From positions 21,488-85,487 of the forward strand of contig JBBTCJ010000007.1 in NCBI GenBank assembly GCA_038043285.1: DNA of 64,000 nucleotides, in the 5' to 3' direction. The notes under the pieces were generated by a model. It was not told the origin of the DNA and searched no databases. It saw only the letters and a list, made by a program, of their open reading frames with translations. Every line of letters starts with the position of its first letter. Within the stretch, counting starts at the first letter, position 1. The position numbers and the translations under genes were made by a program. This DNA is from Planctomycetota bacterium (GTDB taxonomy: Bacteria > Planctomycetota > Phycisphaerae > UBA1845). Shown in pieces: positions 3,915 through 33,439 of this stretch.

Positions 3915-3976
3915 AACGTTTTGCATCGATTGCCGTCCGGGTCCGTGCTCGTACTCCGCCGAGGCGCTCCAGCACC

Positions 3977-16214: not shown

Positions 16215-16498
16215 GGTTGCCTTTGCCCGGAAAAACGCGGCAGGTCTGACCAGGGCGTCAGATCGACATGGTACGCCGAAGTGCCCCAGTGAGCCATGCC
16301 TTCCGACGTTGCGGGACATGCCGTGGCCGGTAACCCGGGGCGTAAGCGACAGACCCAAACGACTGGCCCCGCGCTGACGCTTGGAGTACGGATCAAGAGC
16401 CTCAATCTCGTCAAGAATGTCACGAACGCGAGTGCCGCAGATCACCGAGCATCGCGGATGCTTTCCAGGCCATCCTTGAGCAGGCGGCGGCTTCGGCG

Positions 16499-17074
16499 TT
16501 ATCCCGGCCAGCGGGATTCGAGGTCGGCGGCGATCCCTTCCAATTGCGCGCGCGACTTTCCACCGAAGGAACGGCACTGGACGTCGCAGAACTTGCCGTC
16601 CAAGGAGCGCTGGTCTTCCTCGGTCATCACGTGGTCGCCGACGTTGAACAGGACGCTGTCCTCCTTGTAGATGTGGTTGCTGAGCAGTTCGCTGTAGCCG
16701 CGGGCGGCCTTGCGGAACTGCTGTGCGGCGTCCGGTTCGCGGCGGTCGTGGGCGTACAGGGCTTCGGCCATCTCGGCGGTGAACTTGCGGGCGACGGTGT
16801 GCTCATACAGCATGACCCCGATGGGTCCGCCGTCGCGAGGGATGCCGCGGGATTCCAGAACCGGGAAGAGCAGATCCTCTTCCTTGGCGTGGTGGCAGGC
16901 ATCGGCGAAGAGGCGGAAGAACTCGACGCATTGGGCGAGCGACTCGCGTTCGAAGCCTTTTCCTGCCTCGCAGCGATCGACCAGTCGGTCAAGAATCCGA
17001 ATCACGCGCAAGATGACCTGGTGTTCGGCGCGAAGGACCGCGCAGGGTTGATGGTGTCCGTTGGGTTGATTCAT
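16499..17074 (-). CDS. Hemerythrin-like (HHE cation-binding) domain protein
   Basis: ATG at 17074 with a GGAG RBS. Contains LRAEHQVILRV, CHHAKEEDLLFPVLE and HIYKEDSVLF, which are His/Glu di-iron ligand patterns. It is the last gene of the nap-like operon, 8 nt after the napF-like stop. Confidence 0.75.
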   Translation of the reverse strand: MNQPNGHHQPCAVLRAEHQVILRVIRILDRLVDRCEAGKGFERESLAQCVEFFRLFADACHHAKEEDLLFPVLESRGIPRDGGPIGVMLYEHTVARKFTAEMAEALYAHDRREPDAAQQFRKAARGYSELLSNHIYKEDSVLFNVGDHVMTEEDQRSLDGKFCDVQCRSFGGKSRAQLEGIAADLESRWPG

Positions 17075-17082
17075 GCTTCTCC

Positions 17083-17679
17083 TCAGTTCCTTCCCGCGCC
17101 GCGCGGCTGAATGAAAATTGATTTCGCGGGGCACAAATAGGCGCAGACTCCGCAGCCTGCGCAATGCGATTCATGGACCCGCGGCGCGCCGTCGGTGACA
17201 AAGGCGATCGCTTCGGGCTTCAGGGGACAGCGTACCACGCAGTAGTCGCAGGGCTGACCCTGCGTTCGATAGCAGGCGGCCGCGTCGACCACTGCGGTTC
17301 CCATCTCGACCAGCCCCGCAGGCGTCGCAAGAAGTGCTCCCGTTGGGCACGCGGCGATACAGGGCATGTCCTCGCAGAGGTAGCACGGCGCCTCCTCGGG
17401 AATGACCACGGGGGTTCCGGCGACGGGGCCGAACTCGGGTCCGAGTCGTCGGATCGCGGCATGAGGGCAGGCGTTCACGCAGTCGGTGCAACGGGTGCAG
17501 GCGCCCAGGAACCGCTCCTCGACGATGGCGCCCGGCGGCCGCAGCCACCGGCGCTGCGGCGGGTCGTCGGTCGAAGCGGCGGCTTCGCCGACTCGTCCGA
17601 CGGCGCGGATTGAATCCGCCACGCCGTCAAGCATGGTGCGAGTCAGTTCACCGAAGAAATCCCGCCGCGAGCAACCCAC
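17083..17679 (-). CDS. napF: NapF-like 4Fe-4S ferredoxin
   Basis: N-terminal RRDFF twin-Arg-like motif and LRPPGA motif. Four cluster motifs are present: CTRCTDCVNACP, CYLCEDMPCIAACP, CDYCVVRCP and CAGCGVCAYLCP. The layout matches NapF. Confidence 0.65.
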   Translation of the reverse strand: MGCSRRDFFGELTRTMLDGVADSIRAVGRVGEAAASTDDPPQRRWLRPPGAIVEERFLGACTRCTDCVNACPHAAIRRLGPEFGPVAGTPVVIPEEAPCYLCEDMPCIAACPTGALLATPAGLVEMGTAVVDAAACYRTQGQPCDYCVVRCPLKPEAIAFVTDGAPRVHESHCAGCGVCAYLCPAKSIFIQPRGAGRN

Positions 17680-17688
17680 GCTTTTCTC

Positions 17689-19938
17689 CTACATGGCCGA
17701 GGTACGCATTTCCATCGGTTGTTTCAACAACCACAGACTGAACACGCTGAAACAGATCATCGCGCCGAGCATGGGCAATTGACTGCGAAACGCGGCCCGC
17801 GCGTCGCCGAACAAGCGCAGCGAAGTCCGCTGCGCGATCCAGAGGCTGTACACGTGGCCGACCAGGACCAGGAATACCTGTATGATCCAGAGTTTGTCGA
17901 GCGAAATCATCGGCGGGATCACCCAGCCGGCGGTCCCCAGGACGTTCCATCCCCATCCAAGCGGGTCGGAGAGGATCGCCAGCGCCTTGGGGCCTTCCAT
18001 CAGCAGGTGCTCGGAGTTGTGCGCGATGTGATAGAAGAGCGCTATGGGAAGCAGGGCGTAGGCGTAGCGAATGAAATAGTCCCGGTAGCGCAACGTCTGC
18101 CTCGCCCGCCCCCGACCGAGGCACACGGACAGGGCCACCAGCGCCGCATACGCAGCCACCGGGGCCAGCATGAGGATACCCATGCCCGCGGAGAAGCCAA
18201 GAATTCTTCCCACGCCGCCGGCCGTTCGTATGGCGTCGATCATCTGCTGCCAGACCGGGGTCATGGTCAAGCCGTGGAAGCCGGTGATGGCAAGCATGAG
18301 CAAGGCCAGATAAGCCTCGTCGGTTCGCGGTTTGCCGTCGACGACGAGGTCCGCGCCCCAGGGACGAAGATTGACGGACAGGTTGTGCTCGGGACAGGCC
18401 TGCACGCATTCCATGCACTGAATGCAATAGGTGTTGGTCGCCAGCTTCCCGGGATACAGGAACGTCGGGCAACCGTAGGCCGTCTCGCTTCCGGTGACGC
18501 ACTCCTTGCCGCGGCACGCAGTGCAGGTCCGCGGGTTGCGCGGGCGCACCTCGACGCTTGCGAAAAGGGCGTAGAGGCCGCTGACGCGACCGACCAGACA
18601 TCCGTACCTGCAAAAGCTCTTGCGATCAAAGAGCAGGGCCGCCCCGACGGCCATCAGCAGCATGGCGATCGCCAGGTAGGCGGTCACGCGCGGACGCATG
18701 GTCACGCCGAAACCGAGCTCGATCCAGGTCAATCCGACGAACAGAATGGTGGCGATGGAAATGTTGCGGATGACCTTCGGCCATTTCCACCCCAGGCTCA
18801 GTCCGTCGTCGATTTTGCGCCAAAGCGACAGCTTCTCACTCCACTCTGCAAGGGCGTCCCAAGGACAGACATAGCACCATGCTTTTCCCGCGAAAAGGAT
18901 GAGAACAATGAGCAATCCCCACCAGATGGTCCAGGTGAGGATGGGGGCAATGTTTTGCGCCGGGTTCTGATTTCCCCACAAGCCGGCGGCCACGATCAGG
19001 ACGAAAAACACGACCGTGATCATCCGCAGAATGAACCGGAACGGGCGCGACCGAAACGCCGCCGCAATCCAGGCGACTTTCATCAGGTCCATGCGATCCG
19101 CGGTTCCCGCGGCCGTCGCGACCACACGCGGGGTCGATACGGCGTGCAGCACCGGAAGGGTCAACGCCCCCGATGCGTGCCGTTGCATGACCTCACCGCC
19201 CAGCAAGCGCTCGCCTTCGCCGGAGATGGCGTCGCGGTTGAATCGCGGGAAGGTTGGTCGGTGACCTGTGGAATCCACGGTTGGGCTGCCGGCGTAGCGG
19301 CTGATCCATTCGAAGACGCCAAAGCTCACGAGCAGGACCAGCGCGATCGAGGCATAGTACAGCCACGATGGGATACCCCACATGGAGTGCATGAAAAACG
19401 CGGCGGGATCCTGCTTGAATTGCGTTCGATGCTCTTCACTGCAAAGGTGGTAGGTTCGCTCAAGGTACGTCGCGGGGAAGGATCGCGGATCCGTCAGCCG
19501 CTGCCGGCATACCAGGCACCGCGCGTGCAGGAAATGTTCCGGATCGGCGTCGAATCGTTGCTTGCACTTCTCGGCGCAGAACTGGTAGATCTGCCCATTG
19601 TGGACCGACTGAATGCCCCAGGCCGCGTTGACCTCCATCTGACAAACGACGTCGACGATCCGTTCGCCTGAAGATGTTGCCGCCGCGGATGGACCCCGCT
19701 CGCCGGCGAGGAACCTTCGCCGGCAGCCAGGATTGCAGAAATAGACCGTCCTTCCGTCAATGTCAGCGGCCAGCGCGTCCCCGGGATCGACCGCCATGCC
19801 GCACGGCGCACAGATGGCCTTGGCGGCGGCGGGCACGGTCGTTATGGCCGGTCGGCGCCACGCCACGTTCGAGGCGGCCACGACGGCGACGACGCCGGCC
19901 AGCACTAAGTATGGGAAGAACAGCATGAACCGCTTCAT
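17689..19938 (-). CDS. Triple-YHS-domain / NapH-like polytopic 4Fe-4S membrane protein
   Basis: ATG at 19938 with a GGGAGGGG RBS. After a TM anchor come three YHS/TRASH-type units: CAPCGM..YFCNPGCRRRF, CQMEV..YQFCAEKCKQRF, and CLVCRQ..YHLCSEEHRTQF. Multiple TM helices follow, with CYVCPWD, FCRYGCLVGR and ferredoxin motifs CTACRGKEC / CIQCMECVQACP. Confidence 0.7.
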   Translation of the reverse strand: MKRFMLFFPYLVLAGVVAVVAASNVAWRRPAITTVPAAAKAICAPCGMAVDPGDALAADIDGRTVYFCNPGCRRRFLAGERGPSAAATSSGERIVDVVCQMEVNAAWGIQSVHNGQIYQFCAEKCKQRFDADPEHFLHARCLVCRQRLTDPRSFPATYLERTYHLCSEEHRTQFKQDPAAFFMHSMWGIPSWLYYASIALVLLVSFGVFEWISRYAGSPTVDSTGHRPTFPRFNRDAISGEGERLLGGEVMQRHASGALTLPVLHAVSTPRVVATAAGTADRMDLMKVAWIAAAFRSRPFRFILRMITVVFFVLIVAAGLWGNQNPAQNIAPILTWTIWWGLLIVLILFAGKAWCYVCPWDALAEWSEKLSLWRKIDDGLSLGWKWPKVIRNISIATILFVGLTWIELGFGVTMRPRVTAYLAIAMLLMAVGAALLFDRKSFCRYGCLVGRVSGLYALFASVEVRPRNPRTCTACRGKECVTGSETAYGCPTFLYPGKLATNTYCIQCMECVQACPEHNLSVNLRPWGADLVVDGKPRTDEAYLALLMLAITGFHGLTMTPVWQQMIDAIRTAGGVGRILGFSAGMGILMLAPVAAYAALVALSVCLGRGRARQTLRYRDYFIRYAYALLPIALFYHIAHNSEHLLMEGPKALAILSDPLGWGWNVLGTAGWVIPPMISLDKLWIIQVFLVLVGHVYSLWIAQRTSLRLFGDARAAFRSQLPMLGAMICFSVFSLWLLKQPMEMRTSAM

Positions 19939-19961
19939 GTATGCCCCTCCCGTAGGCATCG

Positions 19962-21506
19962 TTACACTGCCGGTTGCAAGGTACGGGTCGGCGACGTCGT
20001 AGAGCGTTCCCTGGCGCGACGGCGCTTCCGTTGAGCCGCTCGTACCGCAATCGCCGCCACCACCACCGCCGCGGCGGCTGCGACCACCAGTGACCCGGCG
20101 GCGCTGGGCTGACCCGCGATCATGACAAAGGGGATCACCTCGATCCGGCCCTCCACCGGCATCGACAGCTCGACCACGTACTCGCCGTCGGTCGGAAAGG
20201 CCACGTGTAGCTTGTACTGATTCTCCACCGCGGTGCGTTCGCTCGGCGGTATGACCAGCACGTTCTCCCCGAAGGTGCTGGTCTGAAGTATGCGAACGGA
20301 GATCGGCTGGGAGTAAACTTGCCTCGTTTCGCGGTCCTTGATGTACAGCGCCAGGTTGGCGGTCTCGCCGGGGACGGGAACGCCCGGAAAGGACGTCAAG
20401 AGCACGTCATACGGTCCGGTCGCGGCGGGATACTCCAGCGTCGGTCGCTGGGGATAATTCTCCTTATACGAATAGTGCGGCAACCCGAGAATATGATGTG
20501 CCCGGGCGGAATCGACCCCAAGCAGCAGGGCAGCCGCAACGCCGATGGCGGCGACCTTGGCGCGTCCGGCGCCAAGCCGCGTGGATTTTTGTCCGGGACG
20601 CGGCGAGGGAAGACCAATGGTGTAATACAGTGCCTGGGTTGGGCAATGACGTATGCAGACGCCACAATTATCACATTCAATGGACGATGACTGAGTGATG
20701 GGGTTGATGCCCTCCTCACAGACGGGGATGCAATCCCTGCAGCCGGTGCAGAGGTCGGCCCTGAGCCTGACGCGAACCGGACGAAGCCAGCCGAGCAGCC
20801 CGTACAAAGCCCCGCCCGGACACATGGTCCGGCACCACCAGCGCGGGGACACCAGCAACTCGAACGCCGCCATCAGTCCCAGCAACGCCAACATGCCGCT
20901 CAGGGTGGTGCCGAAGATCCACGCGTGTGCCGCCCGACTGATGACCGCCGGAGGATAGACGAGGGCGAAGAGCGGTCCGGAGGCGACGGCCGCAACCACC
21001 GCGCCGATGAGCAGAACAACGTACTTGTTGCGATGGGCGAAGCGCAATTCACCCGGTGGAATCTCCGCGAAGCGCAACAGCGCCCGCAGCTTGCCGCCGA
21101 TCTCAAAGAGCAGATACCCTGGGCAAATCCAACTGCAGAAGACCTTTCCCAACAACAGCGCCAAGGCGACGGGAATAGCAATGGAAACCCAAAGCGGCCC
21201 ATAGACGCTCTTTGAGGCCGCGGTCATTTCCAGAGCCGCCAGCGGGTCCGTCCAATTCACCCCGCCGACGCGCATCGACCACAACGTTCCCTTGTTGGAG
21301 TCGAGGAAGGTCTGCGGGTCATCCAGACCGTCAACGTAGGGATGAATACCCTGGGCAAGCGTCGCACTGCACTGACCGGACATCAGTACCGGATCCTCGA
21401 CAATACGTGCGGTTCGATAGTGGGCGTAAAGGCTCAGCATCGGCAGCGCGAACACCAGCAGCAACGTCAGCACCTGAACGCTTCGTCGAAGGAGCTGGAG
21501 GATCAT
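19962..21506 (-). CDS. napH: NapH/MauN-like membrane polyferredoxin with an extra C-terminal domain
   Basis: The ATG at 21506 overlaps the upstream stop (ATGA). TM helices carry CSWICPG and WWCRTMCPGG, followed by CTGCRDCIPVCE and CDNCGVCIRHCP. Then come a TM segment, a roughly 130-aa domain starting HHILGLPHYSY, and a final TM segment. Confidence 0.7.
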   Translation of the reverse strand: MILQLLRRSVQVLTLLLVFALPMLSLYAHYRTARIVEDPVLMSGQCSATLAQGIHPYVDGLDDPQTFLDSNKGTLWSMRVGGVNWTDPLAALEMTAASKSVYGPLWVSIAIPVALALLLGKVFCSWICPGYLLFEIGGKLRALLRFAEIPPGELRFAHRNKYVVLLIGAVVAAVASGPLFALVYPPAVISRAAHAWIFGTTLSGMLALLGLMAAFELLVSPRWWCRTMCPGGALYGLLGWLRPVRVRLRADLCTGCRDCIPVCEEGINPITQSSSIECDNCGVCIRHCPTQALYYTIGLPSPRPGQKSTRLGAGRAKVAAIGVAAALLLGVDSARAHHILGLPHYSYKENYPQRPTLEYPAATGPYDVLLTSFPGVPVPGETANLALYIKDRETRQVYSQPISVRILQTSTFGENVLVIPPSERTAVENQYKLHVAFPTDGEYVVELSMPVEGRIEVIPFVMIAGQPSAAGSLVVAAAAAVVVAAIAVRAAQRKRRRARERSTTSPTRTLQPAV

Positions 21507-22231
21507 GCGGCACTCTCCAGAGGATACACGGGGCGGCGCGTTCGCACGACGCGGATGGCCGGTTCGCCGCGGACCATGGTGCGGCAGATTTCCTCGCACA
21601 TGCCGCAGCCCACGCACGCTTCCAGGTGTACGATGGGGGCGAGGAATTGCCCCGGCTCCAGGGTGATCGCGCGGCCGCGCAACGGGCAGAAGGTGTAGCA
21701 CTCTCCGCAAGGCCCGCGCCGCTCCGCCTCTGCCTCGACCTCCGTCGGATGACGGCCCAGTTGGGTGAGCAATTCCTGCCGCGAGCGCAAATCCCGGGCC
21801 TTGAACGAAAGACACAAGTCTTCACTCAGTTCGACCTTGCCCATATCCACCGCGGTCATGTCGCCGAAGGGAAGGATCGCCCCGGTGGGACAAGCCGGGC
21901 CGCACTTATTGCAAAGCGTACAGCCCGCCTTCGCGGGGTCTACATATGGGGTGTGAAAATACGCACCGTCCCGCTCGGTGTAGAACTGGATGGCGCCCGG
22001 TTCGCAGGCGTCCTGGCAGCGATAGCAGCGAATGCACGCGGCGAAAAACTCCGCTTCGGGCAGCGATCCGGGCGGGCGGAGAATCCCTGCGGCCTTCGCG
22101 TACGGTCGCTTCACCGCGGGGTATTGCACCCACCGTCCGCGCGAAAGCCAATGGGCAATGCCGCCGACGACGAGCATGGCCAGGGTTGTGGCCATCGTGC
22201 CGACGACTTCGCGCCGGGTGGTCGCGGTCAT
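21503..22231 (-). CDS. napG: NapG/MauM-like TAT-signal 4Fe-4S ferredoxin (copy 2)
   Basis: Contains MTATTRREVVG.., LRPPGS, CIRCYRCQDACEP, CTLCNKCGPACP, CGECYTFCP and CVGCGMCEEIC. It has 4-nt ATGA overlaps on both sides. Confidence 0.65.
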   Translation of the reverse strand: MTATTRREVVGTMATTLAMLVVGGIAHWLSRGRWVQYPAVKRPYAKAAGILRPPGSLPEAEFFAACIRCYRCQDACEPGAIQFYTERDGAYFHTPYVDPAKAGCTLCNKCGPACPTGAILPFGDMTAVDMGKVELSEDLCLSFKARDLRSRQELLTQLGRHPTEVEAEAERRGPCGECYTFCPLRGRAITLEPGQFLAPIVHLEACVGCGMCEEICRTMVRGEPAIRVVRTRRPVYPLESAA

Positions 22232-22842
22232 GCGTGCCTCGCTTTCACCCGGACAGCATGGGGGTAGCGAATGCAGGCCCTTTCACATAAACCGCAGCCG
22301 ACGCAGGCATCGGGATTGACGCGGGGGCGCTCGTAGAGGCCGATGAGCATCGCTTCACCCGCGAACGGGCAAGCGCGGTAGCAGGCCCCGCACGTCCAGT
22401 TGTTGTAGGAATAGCACAGGTCGAAGTCCAGTTCGGCGATTCCAATCGCCACCTTGGCCTTGATGTCGTCACGATCCTTGCGCACCAGTTGCAGCGCGCC
22501 CGAGGGGCAAACGGAGGTGCAGCGGAGGAAGTCGCCGTCTGCGCCCATGCACAACATGCAGGCCGCCCGCCGGGGCTGCATGGTCGGAGTGCCCGCGACG
22601 TTTCCGCCGACGGACGTGGGGATGGATTCGAGGGCGTGATTGGGGCAGGCATCGACGCAGCGCATGCAGCGAATGCACGTGGCGGCGAACTGCTCCTCCG
22701 TCAGCGCCCCGGGCGGACGAAGGATCGGGTGGGCGAGCAGCGGCTGATTCTCCATCATGCCGGAGAAATAGGCCGCCCCGCCGATGGTCAACGTGACCGC
22801 GGCGCCTTGTTTGAGAAACTCGCGACGCCCGACGGCTGCCAT
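22228..22842 (-). CDS. napG: NapG/MauM-like TAT-signal 4Fe-4S ferredoxin (copy 1)
   Basis: Contains MAAVGRREFLKQGAAV (twin-Arg), LRPPGA, CIRCMRCVDACP, CMLC..CTSVCP, CGACYRACP and CVGCGLCERAC. It starts 2 nt after the napA-like stop. Confidence 0.65.
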   Translation of the reverse strand: MAAVGRREFLKQGAAVTLTIGGAAYFSGMMENQPLLAHPILRPPGALTEEQFAATCIRCMRCVDACPNHALESIPTSVGGNVAGTPTMQPRRAACMLCMGADGDFLRCTSVCPSGALQLVRKDRDDIKAKVAIGIAELDFDLCYSYNNWTCGACYRACPFAGEAMLIGLYERPRVNPDACVGCGLCERACIRYPHAVRVKARHA

Positions 22843-22844
22843 GC

Positions 22845-28635: not shown

Positions 28636-28716
28636 GTCGGAGTTTCCTTCACGCCACGTCGTCTCGCCACGACGTCGAACGCAAACGCGGCGACTTTTCC
28701 ACCAGCCGCGTCGGCA

Positions 28717-30324
28717 TTAGTGCACCGGCCACGACGCCTGCGACCAGTAAAAGTTCCAGTTCGGTCCGCGATGCACCGTCGCGAAATAGGTCAAAATCAC
28801 AAATCCCACCAAAAAGCAGGTGAACAACGCGATCGCTCCCATCCGCGTCGAGTTCGTCCACTTCACCACCACGATCGACCAGATCGCAAACAACGCCACG
28901 AAGACCGTCCCGGGGTTGAAGAGCGTAATGACGATCTGGGGAACTTCGGCCGTCGCCGCCCAGTTCCGCAGCCAGCCGTAGTTGACCGTGAACGCCAACA
29001 TGCCGATCACCGCCGCCGTGCTGAGCACCAGGCTACCCAACGCCACGCGACGACCCTTTCGCCCGCTGAACCACAACCCGATGTCCTCGCGCTCGCGGTC
29101 CAGGTAAGGAACCAATGCCAAACCGAGCACCACGATCGCCGGGATCCCCACGCCCCCCATAAACGCCGAATACGAAACAAGTTCCTGAAGACCCAGGAAG
29201 TACCACGGCGCCTTGGCCGGGTTCTCCGGAACCGCCGGATTGGCCATCTCCGTTAACGGCGCGTCGTAGAGAACCCCCAAAACCGTCATGAGCAGAACGG
29301 TGATCATCGAGGCGGCCGCCACGACGTACATCACGTTCGGCCAAGTCGGCATCGTGTTCCGCATCTCGCGGTTGACCGCCGGCGTCGTTCCTCGCATGAC
29401 GCCCATCAAACCGTATGTCTTCAGCGGCGAAGGCTTCCCGTCGCCGCTTGTGGAGACGACCGGTTCGCCGATCGAAGCGGCGTCGGCATGGCTCGGCCGG
29501 GCCAATCCCCCGTCCTTGCGAATCCGCCAGAAGTGCAGACCGATGAGGATGGTCATCACCAGCGGCAATACCATCACATGCAGCACGTAGAACCGAATCA
29601 ACGCTTCCTGCCCCACATAGTGCGCGCCGAGCAGCAACTCCTTCTGCATTCGCCCGGGGTCGAAATACGAGGTGATCCCCAGCGCGTCGGTCAACTCCTG
29701 CGGCGATTGGGCGATGTTCGCCCCGATGGTCACCGCCCAGTACGCCAACTGGTCCCACGGCAGCAGATAACCCGTGAAGCTCAGGCCCAGCGTGAGGACG
29801 AACAGGGACATCCCCACCACCCAGTTGAACTGTCTCGGCCGTTTGTACGCCGACGTATAGAACGCCCGGGCCATGTGCAGCATCACGCACGCCACCATCG
29901 CGTGCGCGGCCCATCGGTGCACGTTGCGGATCAATCGACCCGTCGGCACCACGTGCATGATGTCCAGCATGGACGCATACGCTTGATCCACCGACGGCTT
30001 GTAATAGACCATCAACAGAATGCCCGTGACGCAGAGAAGGACAAACAGTACAAACGTGGCCACCCCCAGTCCCAGCGTCGTCGTCGCCTTGATGGCGTGC
30101 AGGTGCGTTCGCGTGGGCAGAATGTGCAGAAAGAAGTTGGTGAACACCGCCTGCGACTTGGCCCGGTCGGAGGTCGGTTTGCCATGGCGGATCAGCGATT
30201 CGCGAAACTCGCTCGGCGTGGTCCGCAGATTTCTAGAAAAGTCCCCGATGGCCCCGGGATCGCCGACGCTGCGCTGCGTGGGTTTGTCCGGACCCGCGGG
30301 TTTTTGGACGCCTGTCTGACTCAT
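28717..30324 (-). CDS. Cytochrome b (fused b6 plus subunit-IV-like, extended)
   Basis: Contains FFLHILPTRTH, RNVHRWAAHAMV..MLHMARAFY, and FTGYLLPWDQLAYWA (the PEWY-region equivalent). 535 aa with many TM helices and a GGGAGAG RBS. Confidence 0.88.
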   Translation of the reverse strand: MSQTGVQKPAGPDKPTQRSVGDPGAIGDFSRNLRTTPSEFRESLIRHGKPTSDRAKSQAVFTNFFLHILPTRTHLHAIKATTTLGLGVATFVLFVLLCVTGILLMVYYKPSVDQAYASMLDIMHVVPTGRLIRNVHRWAAHAMVACVMLHMARAFYTSAYKRPRQFNWVVGMSLFVLTLGLSFTGYLLPWDQLAYWAVTIGANIAQSPQELTDALGITSYFDPGRMQKELLLGAHYVGQEALIRFYVLHVMVLPLVMTILIGLHFWRIRKDGGLARPSHADAASIGEPVVSTSGDGKPSPLKTYGLMGVMRGTTPAVNREMRNTMPTWPNVMYVVAAASMITVLLMTVLGVLYDAPLTEMANPAVPENPAKAPWYFLGLQELVSYSAFMGGVGIPAIVVLGLALVPYLDREREDIGLWFSGRKGRRVALGSLVLSTAAVIGMLAFTVNYGWLRNWAATAEVPQIVITLFNPGTVFVALFAIWSIVVVKWTNSTRMGAIALFTCFLVGFVILTYFATVHRGPNWNFYWSQASWPVH

Positions 30325-30410
30325 TCGTCACTCTCCCACCGACCACCGGCGCGTGCGGCACCGCTTGGGTGCCCCATCCTTCGCGCAGCGAAGGGTGGGG
30401 CACTCCATGA

Positions 30411-30908
30411 TCACACGTTGAAGACCGTGTTCGCCTTGACCTCCTTCAGCGTATCCGCCACCAGCCAGCCCTCCGGCGAGACACTCAGCTCGACCCACAC
30501 CAACCCCTTGGGGGCTGGGCCGCCCTTGACCTTTCCCTCCGCGTCAAACACCGACCCATGACACGGGCAGTGAAACGCCCCGTCGGCCCCGCGTTCCGTG
30601 ATGCACCCCAAATGGGTGCACACCGACGAAATCGCATGGAAACCCTTCTCTTCTCGGAACAACCAAAGCCGATGCCTGGCGAAATAGGTCATCGATCCCG
30701 CGATGAATTGCGCGGGCCGACCGAGCTTCACGCGAGAGTTGGACTCCGGAAACACCGAGGGCATCGGCAGCCGCATCGCCCCCAGCATGGCCATCACGAA
30801 AGCCACCACCGCCGACCACGCCGCCGCAATGCCCAGAAAATCGCGCCGCGTCGCCGGTGCACGAAACCGCTCGCTTTCCTCGATCTGCGTATGCAACGGT
30901 CTGGTCAT
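30411..30908 (-). CDS. Rieske 2Fe-2S subunit with a twin-Arg signal anchor
   Basis: Contains TRRDFLGIAAAWSAVVAF and CTHLGC..(15 aa)..CPCHGS, the classic Rieske boxes. Confidence 0.9.
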   Translation of the reverse strand: MTRPLHTQIEESERFRAPATRRDFLGIAAAWSAVVAFVMAMLGAMRLPMPSVFPESNSRVKLGRPAQFIAGSMTYFARHRLWLFREEKGFHAISSVCTHLGCITERGADGAFHCPCHGSVFDAEGKVKGGPAPKGLVWVELSVSPEGWLVADTLKEVKANTVFNV

Positions 30909-30972
30909 CGTTCATTCCCTATGTCAGTCTGCCATCGCCGGCGTATGTTTCCGTCTCCATTCCGCATTCGCC

Positions 30973-32883
30973 TCATACTCCCGCCCATTGATCCGTGAAG
31001 CAACAGCGCTCCATGGTGATCGCCCCGACCGGGCAGCGTTCGGCGCACAATGCGCAGCGAATGCACTTCTCCTCGTCCTTGACGATCGCCCCCTGCTCGG
31101 AAAGGTCCGCCTCGCCGTAGCGCCCGACCAGCAACGCCGCAAGTTCCCCGTTGCCTGCCAGGCGGTCGCACGACACCAGCCGAAGACACAGCTCCGGACA
31201 CACGTCCGCGCATCCCCCGCAAAGGATGCACTTCTCCGAGTCAAAGACGGTGTTGACCCCGCAATCCAGGCAGCGACACGCTTCGCGCACCGCGAGGGGT
31301 TCGTCGTACCCGCGCTCGACCACGCTCGTCTGGCTCGCTAGCCGGTCTCCCGCGTTCAACGTTGGAATCGTCGCCCGCGTAAGCTTTTCGTAGTCACGTT
31401 CGCGGCGGAAATCCGGAAGGTTCAGGTGCACCATCTCCGTTCGCGTCGCCTTTCGCTCGCCCGATAGATACGCGTGAATGCTTCGAGCGCACTTCTTCCC
31501 GCTGGCTACCGCGTCGATCAGCAAACGCGCACCGTGGGCCAAGTCGCCCGCGAGAAACACGTCCTTGGCCGACGTCTGCAACGTCTCCGGGTCGCACGTC
31601 AGCAACCCCCGTTGATCGAGCGGCAAGTCGTCGCACCCCGCGGTCAACGACAGATCAGGCTGCTGACCGATCGCCCAGACCACCGTGTCCGCCTCCAGGG
31701 TGACCCGCTGCTTCTCGTCGAATCGCGGCGCGAAGCGGCCGGCCTCGTCGAACACCCCCAGACATCGCTTGAAGGTCACGCCCTTTACGCCGCCGTCGCT
31801 GCCGCGCAGGATCTCCACCGGACCCAGTGACGGATGCAGGCGCACGCCCTCCTCGTGCCCTTCGATGATCTCCACGTCGTCCGCCGGCATCTCGTCCAGG
31901 CTTTCCAAACAGCAGAGGTTCACCTCGCGCACGTTCGATTGCCGCAGCGCGCTGCGCGACACGTCGTATCCCACCTGGCGGATCACCGTGCGCGACACGT
32001 CGTACGCGACGTTGCCCCCTCCCACGACCACCACCCGCTGCCCCAGTTGCAAGAGCGTCGAGCCGGGTCCGCAATGTCTCAGCGATACGTCGCGCAAAAA
32101 CTCCACGCCTCCCAGCACCCCTCGACCCTCGCCGCCTGGAACCGGAACGGTCCGCGATCGCTTCGCTCCGACGGCGATAATCGTGGCTGCGTGGGTCTTG
32201 CGAAGGTCAACCAGGGTCACGTCTTTTCCCACTTGGGTATCACAAATGAACTCCACCCCCAGCGCCCGGATGACCTCGACCTCCGCCCGGATCAACTCGC
32301 GGGGAAGGCGGTACTCGGGGATGCCTACGGCCAACATTCCGGCCGGAACAGGCTCCATTTCGTAGACCACCGGGCGATGCCCCAGCAGGGCCAAATCATG
32401 CGCCGCGGCCAAACCCGCCGGCCCAGATCCGATGATCGCGACCTTCTTCCCGCTGGAACGGATCGGTTTGATCCCATCCAGTACACTCTTCAGCGACTGG
32501 AGTTCCTCTCGACTGCCGCACTCGCGCGGGGAAAAACCCAACACCTTTCGCAGCAGCTCGATGGGCTTCAGTGTTTCCCTGGTGAAGGACTCTGGCCCGA
32601 AGCGATCGGTGACGAAGCGCTTGAGCGCTCGAATGGACACCGGCTGGTCGATCGCCCCGCGCCGGCAAGCCGCCTCGCAGGGTGCCCCGCAGACCCGCCC
32701 GCAGATGCTTGCCAGAGGGTTGGGACCGCGAGCGATCAGGTAGGCCCGCTCAAAGTCTCCCTCCGCAATCGCCCGGACGTACCCTCGCGCGTCGGTGTTG
32801 ACCGGACAGGCGTATTGGCAGCGGATTTGCCGCCGCCAGTAGGCCTCGTCGGGCACTTCCGCGCTGATGGGATCCAAGCTCAT
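30973..32883 (-). CDS. GltD/SudA-like NAD(P)H-dependent FeS flavoprotein with a C-terminal 2x[4Fe-4S] ferredoxin domain
   Basis: N-terminal Cys clusters CQYACPV and CGRVCGAPCEAAC. Dinucleotide folds KVAIIGSGPAGLAAAHDL and VVVVGGGNVAYD. C-terminal motifs CILCGGCADVCP and CIRCALCAERCP. Confidence 0.8.
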   Translation of the reverse strand: MSLDPISAEVPDEAYWRRQIRCQYACPVNTDARGYVRAIAEGDFERAYLIARGPNPLASICGRVCGAPCEAACRRGAIDQPVSIRALKRFVTDRFGPESFTRETLKPIELLRKVLGFSPRECGSREELQSLKSVLDGIKPIRSSGKKVAIIGSGPAGLAAAHDLALLGHRPVVYEMEPVPAGMLAVGIPEYRLPRELIRAEVEVIRALGVEFICDTQVGKDVTLVDLRKTHAATIIAVGAKRSRTVPVPGGEGRGVLGGVEFLRDVSLRHCGPGSTLLQLGQRVVVVGGGNVAYDVSRTVIRQVGYDVSRSALRQSNVREVNLCCLESLDEMPADDVEIIEGHEEGVRLHPSLGPVEILRGSDGGVKGVTFKRCLGVFDEAGRFAPRFDEKQRVTLEADTVVWAIGQQPDLSLTAGCDDLPLDQRGLLTCDPETLQTSAKDVFLAGDLAHGARLLIDAVASGKKCARSIHAYLSGERKATRTEMVHLNLPDFRRERDYEKLTRATIPTLNAGDRLASQTSVVERGYDEPLAVREACRCLDCGVNTVFDSEKCILCGGCADVCPELCLRLVSCDRLAGNGELAALLVGRYGEADLSEQGAIVKDEEKCIRCALCAERCPVGAITMERCCFTDQWAGV

Positions 32884-32944
32884 AACAACGGCTACTCATC
32901 CCTGGCCGTGTGGTCGTACGGCGGAGAAAAAGCCCGCCCCGGGC

Positions 32945-33397
32945 CTACGTCCCCTTCCTCGCCGGCGACTTACCCCGCCTTCGGGGTCGCGTCCCCGCAA
33001 CCGGGGACGGCTCAGCCACGTCGCCGATAGTCATTTCCTTCAGAAAACGCTGTTCGGTCTCAACGACCTTCTTCCAGTGTTCATGGGCCCGACACGGGTT
33101 GGCGTCACTGCAAACGGCGTTCCCAAACGGGCAGCGACGCAGGTCAAATCTTTCAAATGGAGCCAAAACGTCGCAGAGGGCCGTTTTTTCGGGCGGTCGG
33201 CGGAGGCGAAACCCCCCCGTCTTGCCGGGCGACGCATCCAAAACGCCCGCCCGGACCAGATCACCGAGGATTTTCTGGAGGTACTTCGCGGGAATCTTCG
33301 CGCTTCGAGCGATCTCCCGCCCCGGAATCGGCCAACGGTTCTCGTGCTGGGCGAGGAAGATCAAAGCGCGAAGGGCGTATTCGCTGGACAACGTCAT
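32945..33397 (-). CDS. Rrf2-family transcriptional regulator with a putative Fe-S cluster (IscR/NsrR-like)
   Basis: Contains MTLSSEYALRALIFLA and the wHTH segment IPAKYLQKILGDLVRAGVL. The Cys triad is CPFGNAVCSDANPC (Cx6Cx5C). AGGAG RBS. It lies 61 nt upstream of the GltD-like gene on the same strand. Confidence 0.85.
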   Translation of the reverse strand: MTLSSEYALRALIFLAQHENRWPIPGREIARSAKIPAKYLQKILGDLVRAGVLDASPGKTGGFRLRRPPEKTALCDVLAPFERFDLRRCPFGNAVCSDANPCRAHEHWKKVVETEQRFLKEMTIGDVAEPSPVAGTRPRRRGKSPARKGT

Positions 33398-33421
33398 GCG
33401 CAGCTCCTAGGCTCCGTATTC

Positions 33422-33439
33422 GTCTATAAATATATAGAC
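33422..33439. promoter_or_regulatory. AT-rich palindrome GTCTATAAATATATAGAC, a candidate operator and -10 region of the rrf2 operon
   Basis: Perfect 7-bp arms GTCTATA/TATAGAC are separated by 4 nt. It sits 25-42 nt upstream of the rrf2 ATG and is among the most AT-rich stretches I noticed in the window. Confidence 0.45.

What the first reader, a model, noticed from the sequence alone, without database searches (positions are those of the whole stretch)
16499..33439. 12-gene operon that joins a Rieske/cytochrome b complex to a Nap-type periplasmic molybdoenzyme and duplicated NapG/NapH modules, without napB, napC or napD
Seen in the sequence: twelve co-directional minus-strand genes. The intergenic distances are 61, 64, 86, 81, -8, 2, -4, -4, 23, 9 and 8 nt. 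The order is Rrf2, GltD-like flavoprotein, Rieske, cyt b, 10-heme cytochrome c, TAT-NapA-like, NapG-like x2, NapH-like x2, NapF-like and hemerythrin-like. Established knowledge: canonical nap loci pair NapA with the di-heme NapB. They take electrons from quinol through NapC or NapGH, and they need the chaperone NapD. Rieske/cyt b complexes normally reduce soluble cytochromes or oxidases. In this operon the deca-heme gene overlaps the napA-like start by 8 nt, and I found no napB, napC or napD in the window. Inference: the deca-heme protein may replace NapB/NapC as a wire between a quinol-oxidising Rieske/cyt b complex and the molybdoenzyme. The NapGH-like modules would then be a second quinol entry, or they may have a different (metal-handling) role. 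I am not aware of such an architecture being described.
Basis: partly seen in the sequence, partly recalled or inferred. Interest (0 to 1): 0.85.

Follow-up and report, generated by a model that had tools for sequence, protein, structure and literature searches.

The report
Nap-like molybdoenzyme hard-wired to Rieske/cytochrome b
This is a real, widely conserved operon that joins an unnamed relative of the periplasmic and assimilatory nitrate reductases to an anammox-type Rieske/cytochrome b complex through a ten-haem cytochrome; it is a new variant of known designs, and it occurs in cultured bacteria where the proposed energy coupling could be tested.

Summary
Twelve co-directional minus-strand genes lie at 16499-33397, with exactly the reported spacings. 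I found no napB, napC, napD or napE in the 64 kb window.

The cluster is not a chance adjacency:
- 47 of 54 related loci with enough upstream sequence carry GltD-like, Rieske, cyt b and decahaem c genes colinear with the Mo subunit.
- 50 of 50 loci with enough downstream sequence carry the NapG-like and both NapH-like genes.
- These loci come from Phycisphaerae and other Planctomycetota, Wallbacteria, Myxococcota, Latescibacterota, Eiseniibacteriota and the cultured Deferrisoma camini.

The Mo subunit has Nap/Nas-type active-site motifs, but it is not a canonical NapA. It scores 309 bits against a cutoff of 904 and forms its own clade (100% bootstrap) beside NapA and Nas.

A class-I cytochrome c gene precedes the Mo gene in the four clade-wide loci inspected where upstream DNA is held. 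This supports the idea that it replaces NapB. Elusimicrobiota loci carry Alternative Complex III genes instead of Rieske/cyt b, which points to a quinol:cytochrome c feed.

The Rieske module is the anammox type, with an NAD(P) oxidoreductase subunit. Precedents exist: the Caldithrix nap locus, Qcr-dependent Nap in Campylobacter, and the anammox R/b complexes. Nitrate as the substrate is inferred, not shown.

Verdict: a new variant of a known kind, of moderate to high interest.

The parts
32945..33397 (-). Rrf2-family transcription regulator with a C-x6-C-x5-C cluster motif. It is the first gene of the unit.
   Evidence: Pfam Rrf2 E 2e-27. NCBIfam gives only the superfamily: IscR 62 bits and NsrR 46 bits, both far below their cutoffs. 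It is found in this position mainly in the close Phycisphaerae relatives.
30973..32883 (-). Cytoplasmic GltD/NfnB-like FAD/NAD(P)(H) oxidoreductase with Fe-S domains at both ends. It is the putative NAD(P) oxidoreductase subunit of the Rieske/cyt b complex.
   Evidence: Pfam Fer4_20, Pyr_redox_2 and 2x Fer4. Best PDB matches are NfnB-like modules 9bov, 8oh5 and NfnA/NfnI. It is colinear with Rieske and cyt b in 47 of 54 loci.
30411..30908 (-). Rieske [2Fe-2S] protein with an N-terminal anchor/Tat-like region. Box II is CPCHGSVF.
   Evidence: Pfam Rieske. Best PDB hits are the Kuenenia stuttgartiensis Rieske proteins 9rk4 and 9rk3 (68.9 and 63.4 bits).
28717..30324 (-). Cytochrome b: a b6-like four-helix part fused to a subunit-IV-like part, with about 9 TM segments in all.
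   Evidence: Pfam Cytochrome_B and Cytochrom_B_N_2; NCBIfam ExtP (241 bits) and ExtQ. Best PDB matches are cytochrome b6. TM scan.
25639..28635 (-). Membrane-anchored decahaem cytochrome c: an N-terminal TM helix, a c7-like trihaem region and seven class-I cytochrome c domains. Its stop overlaps the start of the Mo gene by 8 nt.
   Evidence: 10 CxxCH motifs. Pfam Cytochrom_C in 7 stretches plus Cytochrome_C7. 58 of 64 homologues have exactly 10 CxxCH; the others are cut by contig ends or are short fragments.
22845..25646 (-). Tat-exported Mo/W-bisPGD catalytic subunit (933 aa) of a distinct clade beside NapA and Nas. It is the probable nitrate reductase.
   Evidence: Pfam Molybdop_Fe4S4, Molybdopterin and Molydop_binding. 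NapA 309 bits against a cutoff of 904; Fdh-alpha 301 against 666. Best PDB match is D. desulfuricans NapA. Clade has 100% bootstrap. Motifs RMCMTSA and TGQPNA and the conserved Arg. Homologues are 66-87% identical across phyla.
22228..22842 (-). NapG-like periplasmic ferredoxin 1, with four Cys-cluster motifs and an RREFLK Tat motif.
   Evidence: NCBIfam NapG 131 bits, below the cutoff of 269. 40% identical to the Selenomonas nap-locus ferredoxin, E 6.5e-31.
21503..22231 (-). NapG-like ferredoxin 2, with four Cys-cluster motifs and an RR motif followed by a hydrophobic segment.
   Evidence: NCBIfam MauM/NapG 91 bits. tblastn E 3e-24. TM scan.
19962..21506 (-). NapH-like membrane Fe-S protein 1 (514 aa). 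It has a NapH core, an extra TM helix, a periplasmic beta-sandwich domain preceded by an invariant HHxxGLPHYxY motif, and a final TM helix.
   Evidence: NCBIfam NapH 122 bits, below the cutoff of 213. 40% identical to a Selenomonas NapH-like protein. Invariant residues. In the AF2 model the beta-sandwich 357-464 has pLDDT above 90. Fold hits are Ig/MG domains and the Cu-binding CrdA, FetP and P19.
17689..19938 (-). NapH-like membrane Fe-S protein 2 (749 aa). It has an N-terminal TM helix, three YHS/TRASH metal-binding-type domains, a NapH-like core, and a C-terminal extension of several TM helices with invariant histidines.
   Evidence: Pfam YHS, TRASH and Fer4_5; NCBIfam NapH 36 bits. Invariant H555, H637, H640, H644 and H695. 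No PDB fold match.
17083..17679 (-). Tetra-cluster ferredoxin of the NapG/NapF type. It has an RRDFF motif but no hydrophobic signal region, so it is probably a cytoplasmic, NapF-like partner.
   Evidence: NCBIfam NapG 113 bits and NapF 59 bits. No TM or h-region. Present after H2 in Phycisphaerae, Wallbacteria and Elusimicrobiota loci.
16499..17074 (-). Hemerythrin HHE-domain protein, with a weak resemblance to the RIC/YtfE di-iron repair proteins. It is the last gene of the unit.
   Evidence: Pfam Hemerythrin E 3e-22. RIC 28 bits, far below its cutoff. It holds the same position only in close relatives. A hemerythrin gene also lies next to the D. camini cluster.

Best explanation
The operon encodes a respiratory module built around a Tat-exported Mo-bisPGD enzyme. 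That enzyme belongs to a previously unnamed clade next to NapA and Nas. Its most likely activity is nitrate reduction to nitrite in the periplasm.

Proposed electron path:
1. Menaquinol is oxidised by a dedicated b6-type Rieske/cytochrome b complex.
2. The high-potential Rieske centre reduces the membrane-anchored decahaem cytochrome.
3. The chain of class-I haem domains in that cytochrome does the jobs of NapC and NapB and delivers electrons to the [4Fe-4S] cluster and Mo site.

Because quinol oxidation runs through a Rieske/cyt b complex, nitrate reduction would conserve energy, unlike NapC-type systems.

The cytoplasmic GltD/NfnB-like subunit links the low-potential branch of the complex to NAD(P)(H), as proposed for the related anammox complexes.

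The two NapG-like, two NapH-like and one NapF-like proteins form accessory membrane Fe-S modules. These could be a low-potential supply for activating or maturing the enzyme, or a second quinol entry. Their periplasmic metal-binding-type domains have an unknown role.

What is shown: gene content, motifs, conservation and module swaps. What is inferred: the substrate, the direction of electron flow, complex formation and NAD(P) coupling.
For: Unit and conservation:
- Gene order and spacing are as reported.
- 47 of 54 evaluable loci have the full colinear upstream module, and 50 of 50 have G1+H1+H2.
- Flanking genes are unrelated between loci, so the cluster travels as a unit.

Mo subunit:
- It has a Tat motif, C-x2-C-x3-C...C with the CIKG Lys, the Mo-ligand motif RMCMTSA (Nap R.CMASA, Nas RLCMSSA, Fdh R.C/U-H), TGQPNA, and the Arg equivalent to D. 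desulfuricans R354.
- It groups with Nap and Nas at 99-100% bootstrap against FdhF/FdhA.
- MoaA or MobA/MobB genes lie adjacent in several loci.

Cytochrome as the NapB substitute:
- A class-I cytochrome c gene lies directly upstream of the Mo gene in Microaerobacter geothermalis (dihaem), L097 (dihaem), L060 (six haems) and L101.
- No NapB/C/D is present in the window.

Quinol:cytochrome c feed:
- Elusimicrobiota loci carry ActA/ActB/ActC-like genes in place of Rieske/cyt b.

Rieske module:
- The closest PDB matches are Kuenenia Kustd1480 and Kuste4569. The Ser-present, Tyr-to-Phe box II matches Kustd1480, measured at +335 mV (PMC12954380).
- Cyt b is b6-like with a long SUIV-like part.
- The flavoprotein is NfnB-like.

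Precedents:
- Nap needs Qcr and NapGH in Campylobacter and Wolinella (PMC6195509).
- The Caldithrix nap locus has Rieske/cyt b and lacks NapB/NapC (PMC5317091).
- M. geothermalis, host of a 50%-identical clade member, respires nitrate (PMC9119079).
- An HAO-family octahaem gene lies next to the D. camini cluster.
Against: - No activity data exist for any member of the clade.
- The subunit scores far below the NapA, Nas and Fdh equivalog cutoffs. Its position relative to Nap and Nas is unresolved (bootstrap 5-35, NJ only).
- Some NapA pocket residues differ. D. desulfuricans Glu156 is Ala, Met308 is Ile, and the residue after the conserved Arg is Leu instead of Glu.
- No nitrite, NO or N2O reductase and no nitrate-related gene recurs near the cluster.
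- The Rrf2 regulator cannot be assigned to NsrR.
- M. geothermalis also has narGHJI, so its phenotype is only permissive.
- From my own memory of the species description, which I could not check here, only Fe(III) and S0 were reported to support growth of D. camini.
- Complex formation among the twelve products is inferred from gene order only.
Confidence: 0.55

Rival explanations
1. The wiring is as described, but the physiological substrate is another high-potential oxyanion rather than nitrate, for example chlorate/perchlorate, selenate or iodate. The clade would then be a new substrate specificity within the Nap/Nas radiation.
For: - It is a separate clade on a long stem (0.27) with 66-87% identity across phyla, which suggests a specialised, constrained function.
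- Several pocket positions differ from NapA.
- There is a ~190-residue region (613-800) with no NapA counterpart and no Pfam match.
- No N-cycle genes recur nearby.
- C. jejuni NapA itself reduces chlorate and perchlorate (PMC12769810).
- Elusimicrobiota loci place an Alginate_exp-type outer-membrane channel directly upstream, which implies uptake of some anionic solute.
Against: - To my knowledge, all characterised enzymes of the Nap/Nas radiation are nitrate reductases.
- The Cys-Met, TGQPNA and Arg motifs are the nitrate-reductase ones.
- Known selenate, chlorate, perchlorate and iodate reductases belong to other DMSOR clades (table in PMC10100899).
- Nitrate is by far the most available such acceptor in groundwater and sediments, where the hosts live.
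Confidence: 0.15
2. The module runs in the oxidative direction. The Mo enzyme oxidises a periplasmic donor, for example nitrite. Electrons enter the class-I haems and are then pushed uphill through the Rieske/cyt b complex to quinone and, through the GltD-like subunit, to NAD(P)+. This would be reverse electron flow for lithotrophy.
For: - The complex has a dedicated NAD(P) oxidoreductase subunit.
- It has a long chain of class-I cytochrome domains, which are typically high-potential.
- The Rieske is predicted to be high-potential.
- In anammox bacteria the related complexes are discussed in the context of NAD(P)H generation (PMC12954380).
Against: - The Elusimicrobiota, L060 and Microaerobacter versions lack the NAD(P) subunit but keep the Mo enzyme with a cytochrome c and NapGH.
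- No terminal oxidase or other sink is linked to the cluster.
- To my knowledge the hosts are mostly anaerobic heterotrophs or metal reducers.
- Known nitrite oxidoreductases are Nar-type, not Nap/Nas-type (my own knowledge).
- NapGH/F accessories are a hallmark of reductive Nap systems (PMC6195509).
Confidence: 0.1
3. The cluster holds two independent systems that merely sit side by side: a Rieske/cyt b complex serving general respiration and a separate Nap-like enzyme fed only by its NapGH-like quinol dehydrogenases.
For: - The core of Mo subunit + 2 NapG + 2 NapH is present in every locus, whereas the Rieske/cyt b module is missing in 7 of 54.
- NapGH is a recognised quinol dehydrogenase in Wolinella and E. 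coli (PMC6195509 and references there).
- Gaps of 61-86 nt in the upstream half could hold internal promoters.
Against: - Colinear adjacency holds in 47 of 47 loci that have the module, across phyla whose flanks are unrelated.
- The decahaem and Mo genes overlap by 8 nt.
- The haem protein fuses a bc-type trihaem part with the class-I domains. Those domains occur alone with the Mo gene in L060, L097 and L098.
- ACIII replaces Rieske/cyt b in Elusimicrobiota.
- A degenerate Mo-less homologue stays attached to the Rieske/cyt b module without NapGH in L101.
Confidence: 0.07
4. The two enlarged NapH-like proteins are not electron feeders for the Mo enzyme. They are CcoG-like metal reductases or metal-trafficking proteins that handle copper or another metal in the periplasm, either for this system or in parallel with it.
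For: - H2 has three YHS/TRASH domains.
- H1 has a periplasmic beta-sandwich with an invariant His-His...His-Tyr-x-Tyr motif. Its fold hits include the Cu-binding CrdA (E 2.5e-4, TMt 0.72), FetP and P19.
- Some H1 homologues carry PF13746, which as I recall is the CcoG-type Fe-S domain.
- CcoG is a NapH-related cupric reductase (my own knowledge).
Against: - No recognisable copper enzyme is encoded in the cluster.
- Every listed homologue of H1 and H2 has the same enlarged length and domain make-up, and in the fetched loci H1 and H2 always lie next to the Mo gene.
- The beta-sandwich matches are generic Ig/MG folds with marginal scores.
- H1 is 40% identical to a genuine nap-locus NapH-like protein.
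Confidence: 0.13

Closest known systems
Epsilonproteobacterial Nap system (napAGHBFLD) fed by the QcrABC Rieske/cytochrome bc complex (Campylobacter jejuni, Wolinella succinogenes; PMC6195509)
   Same: - A periplasmic Nap-type enzyme without NapC.
- NapG, NapH and NapF-type Fe-S proteins are present alongside.
- Electrons come from menaquinol through a Rieske/cyt b complex, which makes the process electrogenic.
   Different: - In those bacteria qcr and nap are separate loci, and NapB, NapL and NapD are present.
- Here the Rieske/cyt b genes are in the same operon.
- NapB is replaced by class-I cytochrome domains fused to the bc cytochrome.
- NapG and NapH are duplicated and enlarged.
- The Mo subunit is only about 30% identical to NapA and lies outside the NapA clade.
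Caldithrix abyssi nap locus containing Rieske/cytochrome b, NapM, NapA, NapGH and an adjacent epsilon-Hao (PMC5317091)
   Same: - A nap cluster that lacks napB and napC.
- It physically includes Rieske and cytochrome b genes plus NapGH.
- A multihaem cytochrome is proposed as the link.
- An HAO-family gene lies nearby, as in D. camini.
   Different: - Caldithrix uses a tetrahaem NapM and has single NapG/NapH copies. The paper describes no GltD-like subunit in that locus.
- Here there is a decahaem with seven class-I domains, an NAD(P) oxidoreductase subunit and enlarged NapH-like proteins.
- I could not test whether the Caldithrix NapA belongs to this clade.
Anammox Rieske/cytochrome b complexes Kuste4569-4574 and Kustd1480-1485 of Kuenenia stuttgartiensis (PMC12954380)
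   Same: - A b6-like cytochrome b with a long subunit-IV-like part.
- A high-potential Rieske. These are the best PDB matches of the window protein.
- A multihaem c in place of cytochrome f or c1.
- A cytoplasmic NAD(P) oxidoreductase subunit.
- A client redox enzyme encoded in the same cluster.
   Different: - The client there is an HAO-like octahaem protein, with nitrite-to-NO reduction proposed. Here it is a Mo-bisPGD enzyme with NapGH-like accessories.
- The hosts here are non-anammox bacteria from many phyla.
- Cyt b and SUIV are fused in the window.
Canonical NapA (NCBIfam TIGR01706/NF010055) and assimilatory NasA/NasC/NarB
   Same: - Domain order.
- The [4Fe-4S] motif.
- Cys-Met Mo-ligand motif, TGQPNA and the conserved Arg.
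- A Tat signal, like NapA.
   Different: - About 30% identity.
- Below all curated cutoffs.
- A separate, 100%-supported clade.
- An internal region of about 190 residues that is not alignable.
- A different partner cytochrome.
Methanoperedens nar cluster NapH-like protein with five extra C-terminal TM helices (PMC4683180)
   Same: A NapH homologue with a C-terminal multi-helix membrane extension, encoded in a nitrate reductase cluster without a canonical partner set. This resembles NapH-like 2 here.
   Different: - That system is archaeal and Nar-type, and its protein has no YHS domains.
- I did not test homology between the two extensions.

Membership tests
NapA, periplasmic nitrate reductase catalytic subunit | Score above the curated family cutoffs (NF010055: 904 bits; TIGR01706: 930.55 bits) | tested here: not met
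   309 and 290 bits. The Fdh-alpha model scores about the same (301 bits against 666).
NapA, periplasmic nitrate reductase catalytic subunit | Placement inside the NapA clade in a phylogeny that includes Nas and Fdh references | tested here: not met
   NJ tree of 87 sequences and 693 columns. The NapA clade has 100% bootstrap and excludes the window protein. The window protein forms its own 100% clade with P0121, P0122, P0124 and P0126. The branching order among the three groups is unresolved.
NapA, periplasmic nitrate reductase catalytic subunit | Tat signal, N-terminal [4Fe-4S] motif, Cys Mo ligand followed by Met, conserved active-site Arg | tested here: met
   DRRAFMK; CPYCGVGCG...CIKG; RMCMTSA; Arg aligned to D. 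desulfuricans R354.
NapA, periplasmic nitrate reductase catalytic subunit | Partner genes napB (or napM/napC) and the chaperone napD | tested here: not met
   No tblastn hit in the 64 kb window better than E = 0.015. No such genes were called in L001, L003 or L098. NapD is small and divergent, so BLAST-level absence is not proof.
NapA, periplasmic nitrate reductase catalytic subunit | Nitrate reductase activity | not testable with these tools
   No biochemical data were found for any clade member.
Nap/Nas nitrate reductase radiation of the DMSOR (MopB) superfamily | Groups with Nap and Nas to the exclusion of formate dehydrogenases, and has CM rather than C/U-H after the conserved Arg | tested here: met
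   99-100% bootstrap for the group against FdhF/FdhA/Fdh3A. Motif comparison.
NapGH quinol dehydrogenase module | NapH: four TM helices, two CxxCP-type motifs and a cytoplasmic di-cluster domain. NapG: a Tat-exported tetra-cluster ferredoxin. Both should score above the family cutoffs. | tested here: inconclusive
   The motifs and topology elements are present in H1 and H2, and G1 has a clear Tat motif. All HMM scores are below the cutoffs: H1 122 against 213, H2 36 against 213, G1 131 against 269. H1 and H2 carry extra domains that NapH lacks.
Anammox-type Rieske/cytochrome b complex with NAD(P) oxidoreductase subunit | A Rieske closest to Kuste4569/Kustd1480; a b6-like cyt b with an extended SUIV-like part; a multihaem c instead of cyt f/c1; an adjacent GltD-like NAD(P) oxidoreductase gene; a client enzyme in the cluster | tested here: met
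   with the family description from PMC12954380. Physical assembly and NAD(P) coupling cannot be tested here and are unproven even for the anammox complexes.
CcoG/FixG cupric reductase | Fer4_5 + Fer4_18 Fe-S membrane core, a C-terminal FixG_C Ig-like domain, and genomic linkage to ccoNOQP/ccoGHIS | tested here: not met
   Fer4_5 is present. PF13746 is seen in only a few H1 homologues. There is no Pfam match for the H1 beta-sandwich. No cco genes are in the window or the loci.

The most novel reading that the evidence does not exclude
The twelve products assemble into one supercomplex in which menaquinol oxidation at the Rieske/cyt b Qo site is split. One electron runs downhill through the decahaem cytochrome to nitrate at the Mo site. 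The other is driven uphill through the b haems and Fe-S clusters to the NfnB-like flavoprotein, which makes NAD(P)H.

This is the quinol-bifurcating mechanism proposed, but never demonstrated, for the anammox Rieske/cyt b complexes. Here it would be found in many non-anammox phyla, including the pure-culture organism Deferrisoma camini, with a new clade of nitrate reductase as the high-potential arm.
Probability: 0.18. Interest if true: 0.85.

Novelty: new variant of a known kind. Interest (0 to 1): 0.62.

Why it matters
1. It defines a third, widespread clade beside NapA and Nas. At least 126 species-level genomes are involved, in seven or more phyla. Current annotation calls these proteins only 'molybdopterin oxidoreductase', so surveys based on napA/narG markers would miss this possible nitrate-reducing capacity in groundwater, subsurface and sediment communities.

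2. If the enzyme is fed through a Rieske/cyt b or ACIII complex, periplasmic nitrate reduction in these organisms conserves energy. That changes the expected growth yields.

3. The Rieske module is the same unusual type as in anammox bacteria, with an NAD(P) oxidoreductase subunit. The proposed quinol-driven NAD(P)H generation has been an open question for over a decade and is hard to test in anammox enrichments. Here the module occurs in Deferrisoma camini, an isolate in pure culture. A simpler version of the enzyme occurs in Microaerobacter geothermalis, a cultured nitrate reducer.

4. The duplicated, enlarged NapH-like proteins with invariant His motifs and YHS domains are uncharacterised membrane redox proteins. 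They may help clarify the disputed role of NapGH.

Tried and rejected
- **Promoter and terminator scan** of 15500-34500. The results were at or near shuffle expectation, so they say nothing about transcription units. The sigma-70 consensus is also unlikely to fit this organism.
- **Rrf2 as NsrR.** This would have supported an N-oxide link. NCBIfam gives only the superfamily; IscR, RirA and NsrR are all far below their cutoffs, so I dropped the idea. The hemerythrin as RIC/YtfE scores only 28 bits against a cutoff of 205.
- **Recurrent neighbours** such as nir, nrf, nor, nos or narK around 81 loci. Only the cluster genes recur. MoaA is upstream in 8 loci. The rest of the window is housekeeping.
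- **Fold search of the NapH-like 2 model.** No PDB match (best E = 0.18).
- **Relaxed Pfam scans** of the H1 C-terminal domain, the H2 C-terminal extension and the Mo-subunit insert found no family.
- **Literature.** Eight full-text searches found no paper describing this cluster or clade. The 2025 NapA phylogeny used cultured organisms only and does not mention Planctomycetes.
- **D. camini nitrate phenotype.** I could not verify it in the library. My recollection that only Fe(III) and S0 support growth is unconfirmed.
- **Formate dehydrogenase** was considered and rejected. There is no Sec/Cys-His motif, and the protein is separated from Fdh in the tree.
- **Arsenite oxidase or iodate reductase pairing with the Rieske protein** was considered and rejected. 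The Mo ligand Cys is present, and the Rieske is the bc/b6f type and sits next to cyt b.

Full report
**1. Observation**

The region 16499-33397 holds twelve minus-strand reading frames. Their third-position GC is that of real genes in this 64% GC window.

The flanks are unrelated housekeeping genes:
- IspH and dehydroquinate synthase on one side.
- A threonine-aldolase-type lyase, a transposase fragment and glycosyltransferases on the other.

Profile searches confirm every assignment, with three refinements:
- The 'NapF-like' protein matches NapG better than NapF.
- The ten-haem protein is a TM anchor, a c7-like trihaem region and seven class-I cytochrome c domains.
- The two 'NapH-like' proteins are 514 and 749 residues, against about 290 for NapH, and carry additional domains.

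NapB, NapC, NapD and NapE queries from three annotated nap loci find nothing in the whole window (best E = 0.015). The rest of the window has no nitrogen-cycle gene. It does have a MOT1-type molybdate transporter at 3914-5164.

**2. The cluster is a conserved, mobile unit**

The Mo subunit has hundreds of homologues of 72-87% identity in metagenomes. It also has 126 relatives among species-representative genomes. Eighty of these were fetched. They come from:
- Phycisphaerae and other Planctomycetota.
- Candidatus Wallbacteria.
- Myxococcota and Deltaproteobacteria.
- Latescibacterota, Elusimicrobiota and Eiseniibacteriota.

One further locus comes from the isolate Deferrisoma camini.

Searching the twelve window proteins against these loci gave the following:
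- 47 of 54 loci with at least 7.2 kb upstream carry GltD-like, Rieske, cyt b and the decahaem c, always in the same order.
- 50 of 50 loci with at least 5.5 kb downstream carry NapG-like 1 and both NapH-like genes.
- 58 of 64 cytochrome homologues have exactly ten CxxCH motifs. The others are cut by contig ends or are short fragments.

Genes outside the cluster are not shared between loci, apart from MoaA upstream in eight. The module therefore moves as a block. Rrf2 and the hemerythrin belong to the version found in close Phycisphaerae relatives. A hemerythrin also lies beside the D. camini cluster.

**3. The Mo subunit**

- It scores 309 bits against NapA (cutoff 904), 301 against Fdh-alpha (cutoff 666) and 258 against NasA.
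- Its best solved relative is the monomeric NapA of Desulfovibrio desulfuricans (243 bits).
- It is about 30% identical to annotated NapA and Nas proteins and about 26% identical to FdhF.

I built a neighbour-joining tree with 100 bootstraps from 87 sequences and 693 columns. The input was 12 annotated references fetched from plasmid records and 70 representatives from an exhaustive search. The tree shows:
- The window family, with four deeper relatives (52, 50, 42 and 40% identity), forms a clade with 100% support on a long stem.
- Canonical NapA is a separate 100% clade.
- The main Nas clade has 97% support.
- All three sit in a group separated from formate dehydrogenases with 99-100% support.
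- The branching order among the three is unresolved.

The active-site motifs are those of nitrate reductases:
- R-M-C-M-T-S-A, compared with Nap R-x-C-M-A-S-A, Nas R-L-C-M-S-S-A and Fdh R-x-C/U-H.
- T-G-Q-P-N-A, compared with Fdh R-G-Q-N-N.
- The Arg equivalent to D. desulfuricans R354, and the cluster-to-pterin Lys.

Differences from NapA:
- Glu156 is Ala.
- Met308 is Ile.
- The residue after the Arg is Leu instead of Glu.
- A stretch of about 190 residues has no counterpart and no Pfam match.

The protein is still not a member of NapA as that family is defined.

**4. What the variants of the cluster say**

- *Elusimicrobiota loci.* They keep the Mo subunit, two NapG-like, two NapH-like and the NapF-like gene, but lack the GltD/Rieske/cyt b/decahaem genes. 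Immediately downstream they carry a haem protein (a class-I domain plus multihaem), a roughly 1000-residue fused MopB-like/Fe-S protein and an NrfD-like membrane protein. This is the ActA/ActB/ActC pattern of Alternative Complex III (related to Qrc). An Alginate_exp-type outer-membrane channel lies upstream. Two different quinol:cytochrome c oxidoreductases occupying the same functional slot is the strongest argument that the Mo enzyme exchanges electrons with the quinol pool through c-type cytochromes.
- *Locus L060.* It has only a six-haem class-I cytochrome in front of the Mo gene.
- *Deeper clade members.* In Microaerobacter geothermalis (50% identity) the order is Moco genes, TatC, a NapF-like ferredoxin, TatA, a dihaem class-I cytochrome c, the Mo subunit, NapG, NapH. 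In L097 (52%) the order is dihaem class-I cytochrome c, Mo subunit, NapH, NapG.
- *Clade signature.* The shared pattern is a class-I cytochrome c gene directly upstream of the Mo gene, in the place where other nap systems have NapB or NapM. The decahaem protein looks like a fusion of that partner with the multihaem subunit of the Rieske/cyt b complex.
- *Relic form.* A 680-residue relative (40%) with degenerate Mo-ligand and TGQPNA motifs and no C-terminal pterin-binding domain still follows GltD-Rieske-cyt b6-SUIV-multihaem c in a Deltaproteobacteria MAG, without NapGH. It looks like a cofactor-less relic and shows that the association with this Rieske module is old.

**5. The Rieske/cyt b module**

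- The best solved relatives of the Rieske protein are the two Kuenenia stuttgartiensis proteins Kustd1480 and Kuste4569.
- Its box II, CPCHGSVF, has the potential-raising Ser and a Phe in place of Tyr. Kustd1480 has the same pattern and was measured at +335 mV (PMC12954380).
- The cytochrome b is b6-like with a long subunit-IV-like part, about nine TM segments in all.
- The flavoprotein is closest to NfnB-type NADPH modules.

This is the composition described for the anammox complexes Kuste4569-4574 and Kustd1480-1485. For those complexes a split of the two quinol electrons has been proposed but not demonstrated: one to a high-potential acceptor and one to NAD(P)+ (PMC12954380). In Kuenenia the client enzyme is an HAO-like octahaem protein. 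Here it is the Mo enzyme.

**6. The NapG/NapH/NapF-like proteins**

- G1 has a standard Tat motif. G2 has an RR motif followed by a hydrophobic segment. The third ferredoxin has RRDFF but no hydrophobic region, so it is probably cytoplasmic, as NapF is.
- H1 is 40% identical to a nap-locus NapH-like protein. It adds a TM helix, a periplasmic domain and a last TM helix.
- In 45 H1 homologues the stretch H337-H338-x-x-G-L-P-H344-Y345-x-Y347 is invariant.
- The AlphaFold2 model of H1 (mean pLDDT 70) gives a confident beta-sandwich at 357-464. Its PDB matches are Ig/macroglobulin domains and, among the top hits, the copper-binding proteins CrdA (E 2.5e-4, TMt 0.72), FetP and P19. These matches are suggestive only.
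- H2 has three YHS/TRASH domains, predicted by topology reasoning to be periplasmic. It also has a NapH-like core and a C-terminal helical extension with five invariant histidines. Its model has no PDB match.
- All listed homologues of H1 (356 hits) and H2 (525 hits) have these same architectures.
- In Campylobacter and Wolinella, NapG and NapH are needed for nitrate respiration even though electrons come through Qcr. A role in reductive maturation has been suggested for them (PMC6195509).
- A NapH-like protein with five extra helices is also known from the Methanoperedens nar cluster (PMC4683180).

The role of these modules here stays open.

**7. Most likely mechanism**

Shown:
- Gene content.
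- Export signals.
- Cofactor motifs.
- Conservation of order.
- The cytochrome c / Mo adjacency throughout the clade.
- The ACIII substitution.

Inferred:
- Menaquinol is oxidised by the Rieske/cyt b complex.
- The Rieske centre reduces the decahaem cytochrome.
- The class-I domains carry electrons to the Mo subunit.
- The Mo subunit reduces nitrate in the periplasm.
- The GltD/NfnB-like subunit couples the low-potential side to NAD(P)(H).
- The NapGH/F-like proteins supply low-potential electrons for activation or act as a second entry.

Supporting context:
- M. geothermalis respires nitrate and nitrite, though it also has narGHJI (PMC9119079).
- An HAO-family octahaem gene lies next to the D. 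camini cluster, as epsilon-Hao lies next to the Caldithrix nap locus (PMC5317091).

Against:
- There is no activity for any member.
- No N-cycle genes recur nearby.
- The regulator cannot be assigned.
- From memory, unverified here, D. camini was described as growing with Fe(III) and S0 only.

**8. Comparison with the known, and novelty**

Three elements of the design are already described:
- Nap dependent on a Rieske/cyt bc complex and NapGH in Epsilonproteobacteria (PMC6195509).
- A nap locus that physically includes Rieske/cyt b and lacks NapB/NapC in Caldithrix abyssi (PMC5317091).
- Rieske/cyt b complexes with an NAD(P) oxidoreductase subunit and a client enzyme in anammox bacteria (PMC12954380).

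What I did not find described in eight full-text searches, or in the recent NapA phylogeny (PMC12769810):
- This clade of Mo subunit.
- Its class-I cytochrome partner.
- The decahaem fusion.
- The combination with the anammox-type module outside anammox bacteria.
- The two enlarged NapH-like proteins.

I therefore rate it a new variant of a known kind.

It is of real interest to bioenergetics and nitrogen-cycle specialists. The clade is widespread and currently invisible to marker-gene surveys. It also puts the unproven anammox-type NAD(P)H-generating mechanism into cultured organisms.

Noticed in passing
window 3914-5164 (+): A MOT1-family (MFS) molybdate transporter gene lies about 11 kb from the Mo-enzyme operon (Pfam MFS_MOT1, E 7e-62). 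It may supply molybdate. It is not part of the conserved cluster.
   Followed up: no
window 34755-35285 (-): A fragment of a DDE transposase (DDE_Tnp_1) lies about 1.4 kb upstream of the Rrf2 gene. This fits the cluster being a horizontally moved block with unrelated flanks in other genomes.
   Followed up: partly
L101 3880-12043 (Deltaproteobacteria MAG GCA_016218825.1): GltD-like, Rieske, cyt b6, SUIV and a multihaem c are followed by a 680-aa homologue of the Mo subunit. It has degenerate Mo-ligand and TGQPNA motifs and no Molydop_binding domain, and no NapGH genes follow. It is probably a cofactor-less relic kept as a structural or Fe-S subunit.
   Followed up: partly
L065, L072, L074, L078 (Elusimicrobiota MAGs), about 8.1-10 kb and 18-22.7 kb: An Alginate_exp-family outer-membrane channel gene lies directly upstream of the Mo gene in three of these loci (L065, L074, L078). 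ACIII-type genes (ActA-, ActB- and ActC-like) lie downstream of the NapF-like gene, in place of the Rieske/cyt b module.
   Followed up: yes
L001 721-2814 and 17719-22429 (Deferrisoma camini): An HAO-family octahaem cytochrome (weak hydrazine-dehydrogenase-family hit, 71 bits) and a hemerythrin are divergently placed next to the cluster. DsbD, a thioredoxin-like protein and a MobA/MobB-type gene follow it.
   Followed up: partly
L098 3656-14744 (Microaerobacter geothermalis): This is a minimal version of the system in a cultured nitrate reducer: Moco biosynthesis genes, TatC, a NapF-like ferredoxin, TatA, a dihaem class-I cytochrome c, an 837-aa Mo subunit (50% identical), NapG, NapH and a 180-aa protein with no family.
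   Followed up: partly
window 19962-21506 (-), residues 337-347 of the product: An invariant HHxxGLPHYxY motif precedes a confidently modelled periplasmic beta-sandwich in NapH-like 1. No Pfam family covers it. Fold hits include the copper-binding CrdA, FetP and P19.
   Followed up: partly
window 17689-19938 (-), residues 540-749 of the product: The C-terminal helical extension of NapH-like 2 has five invariant histidines (H555, H637, H640, H644, H695). It has no Pfam or PDB fold match. It could bind haem b or a metal.
   Followed up: partly
L005 1544-2998 and seven other loci: A MoaA (radical SAM, Mob_synth_C) gene sits between the Rrf2 and GltD-like genes in eight loci. This fits the Mo-cofactor demand of the cluster.
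   Followed up: no
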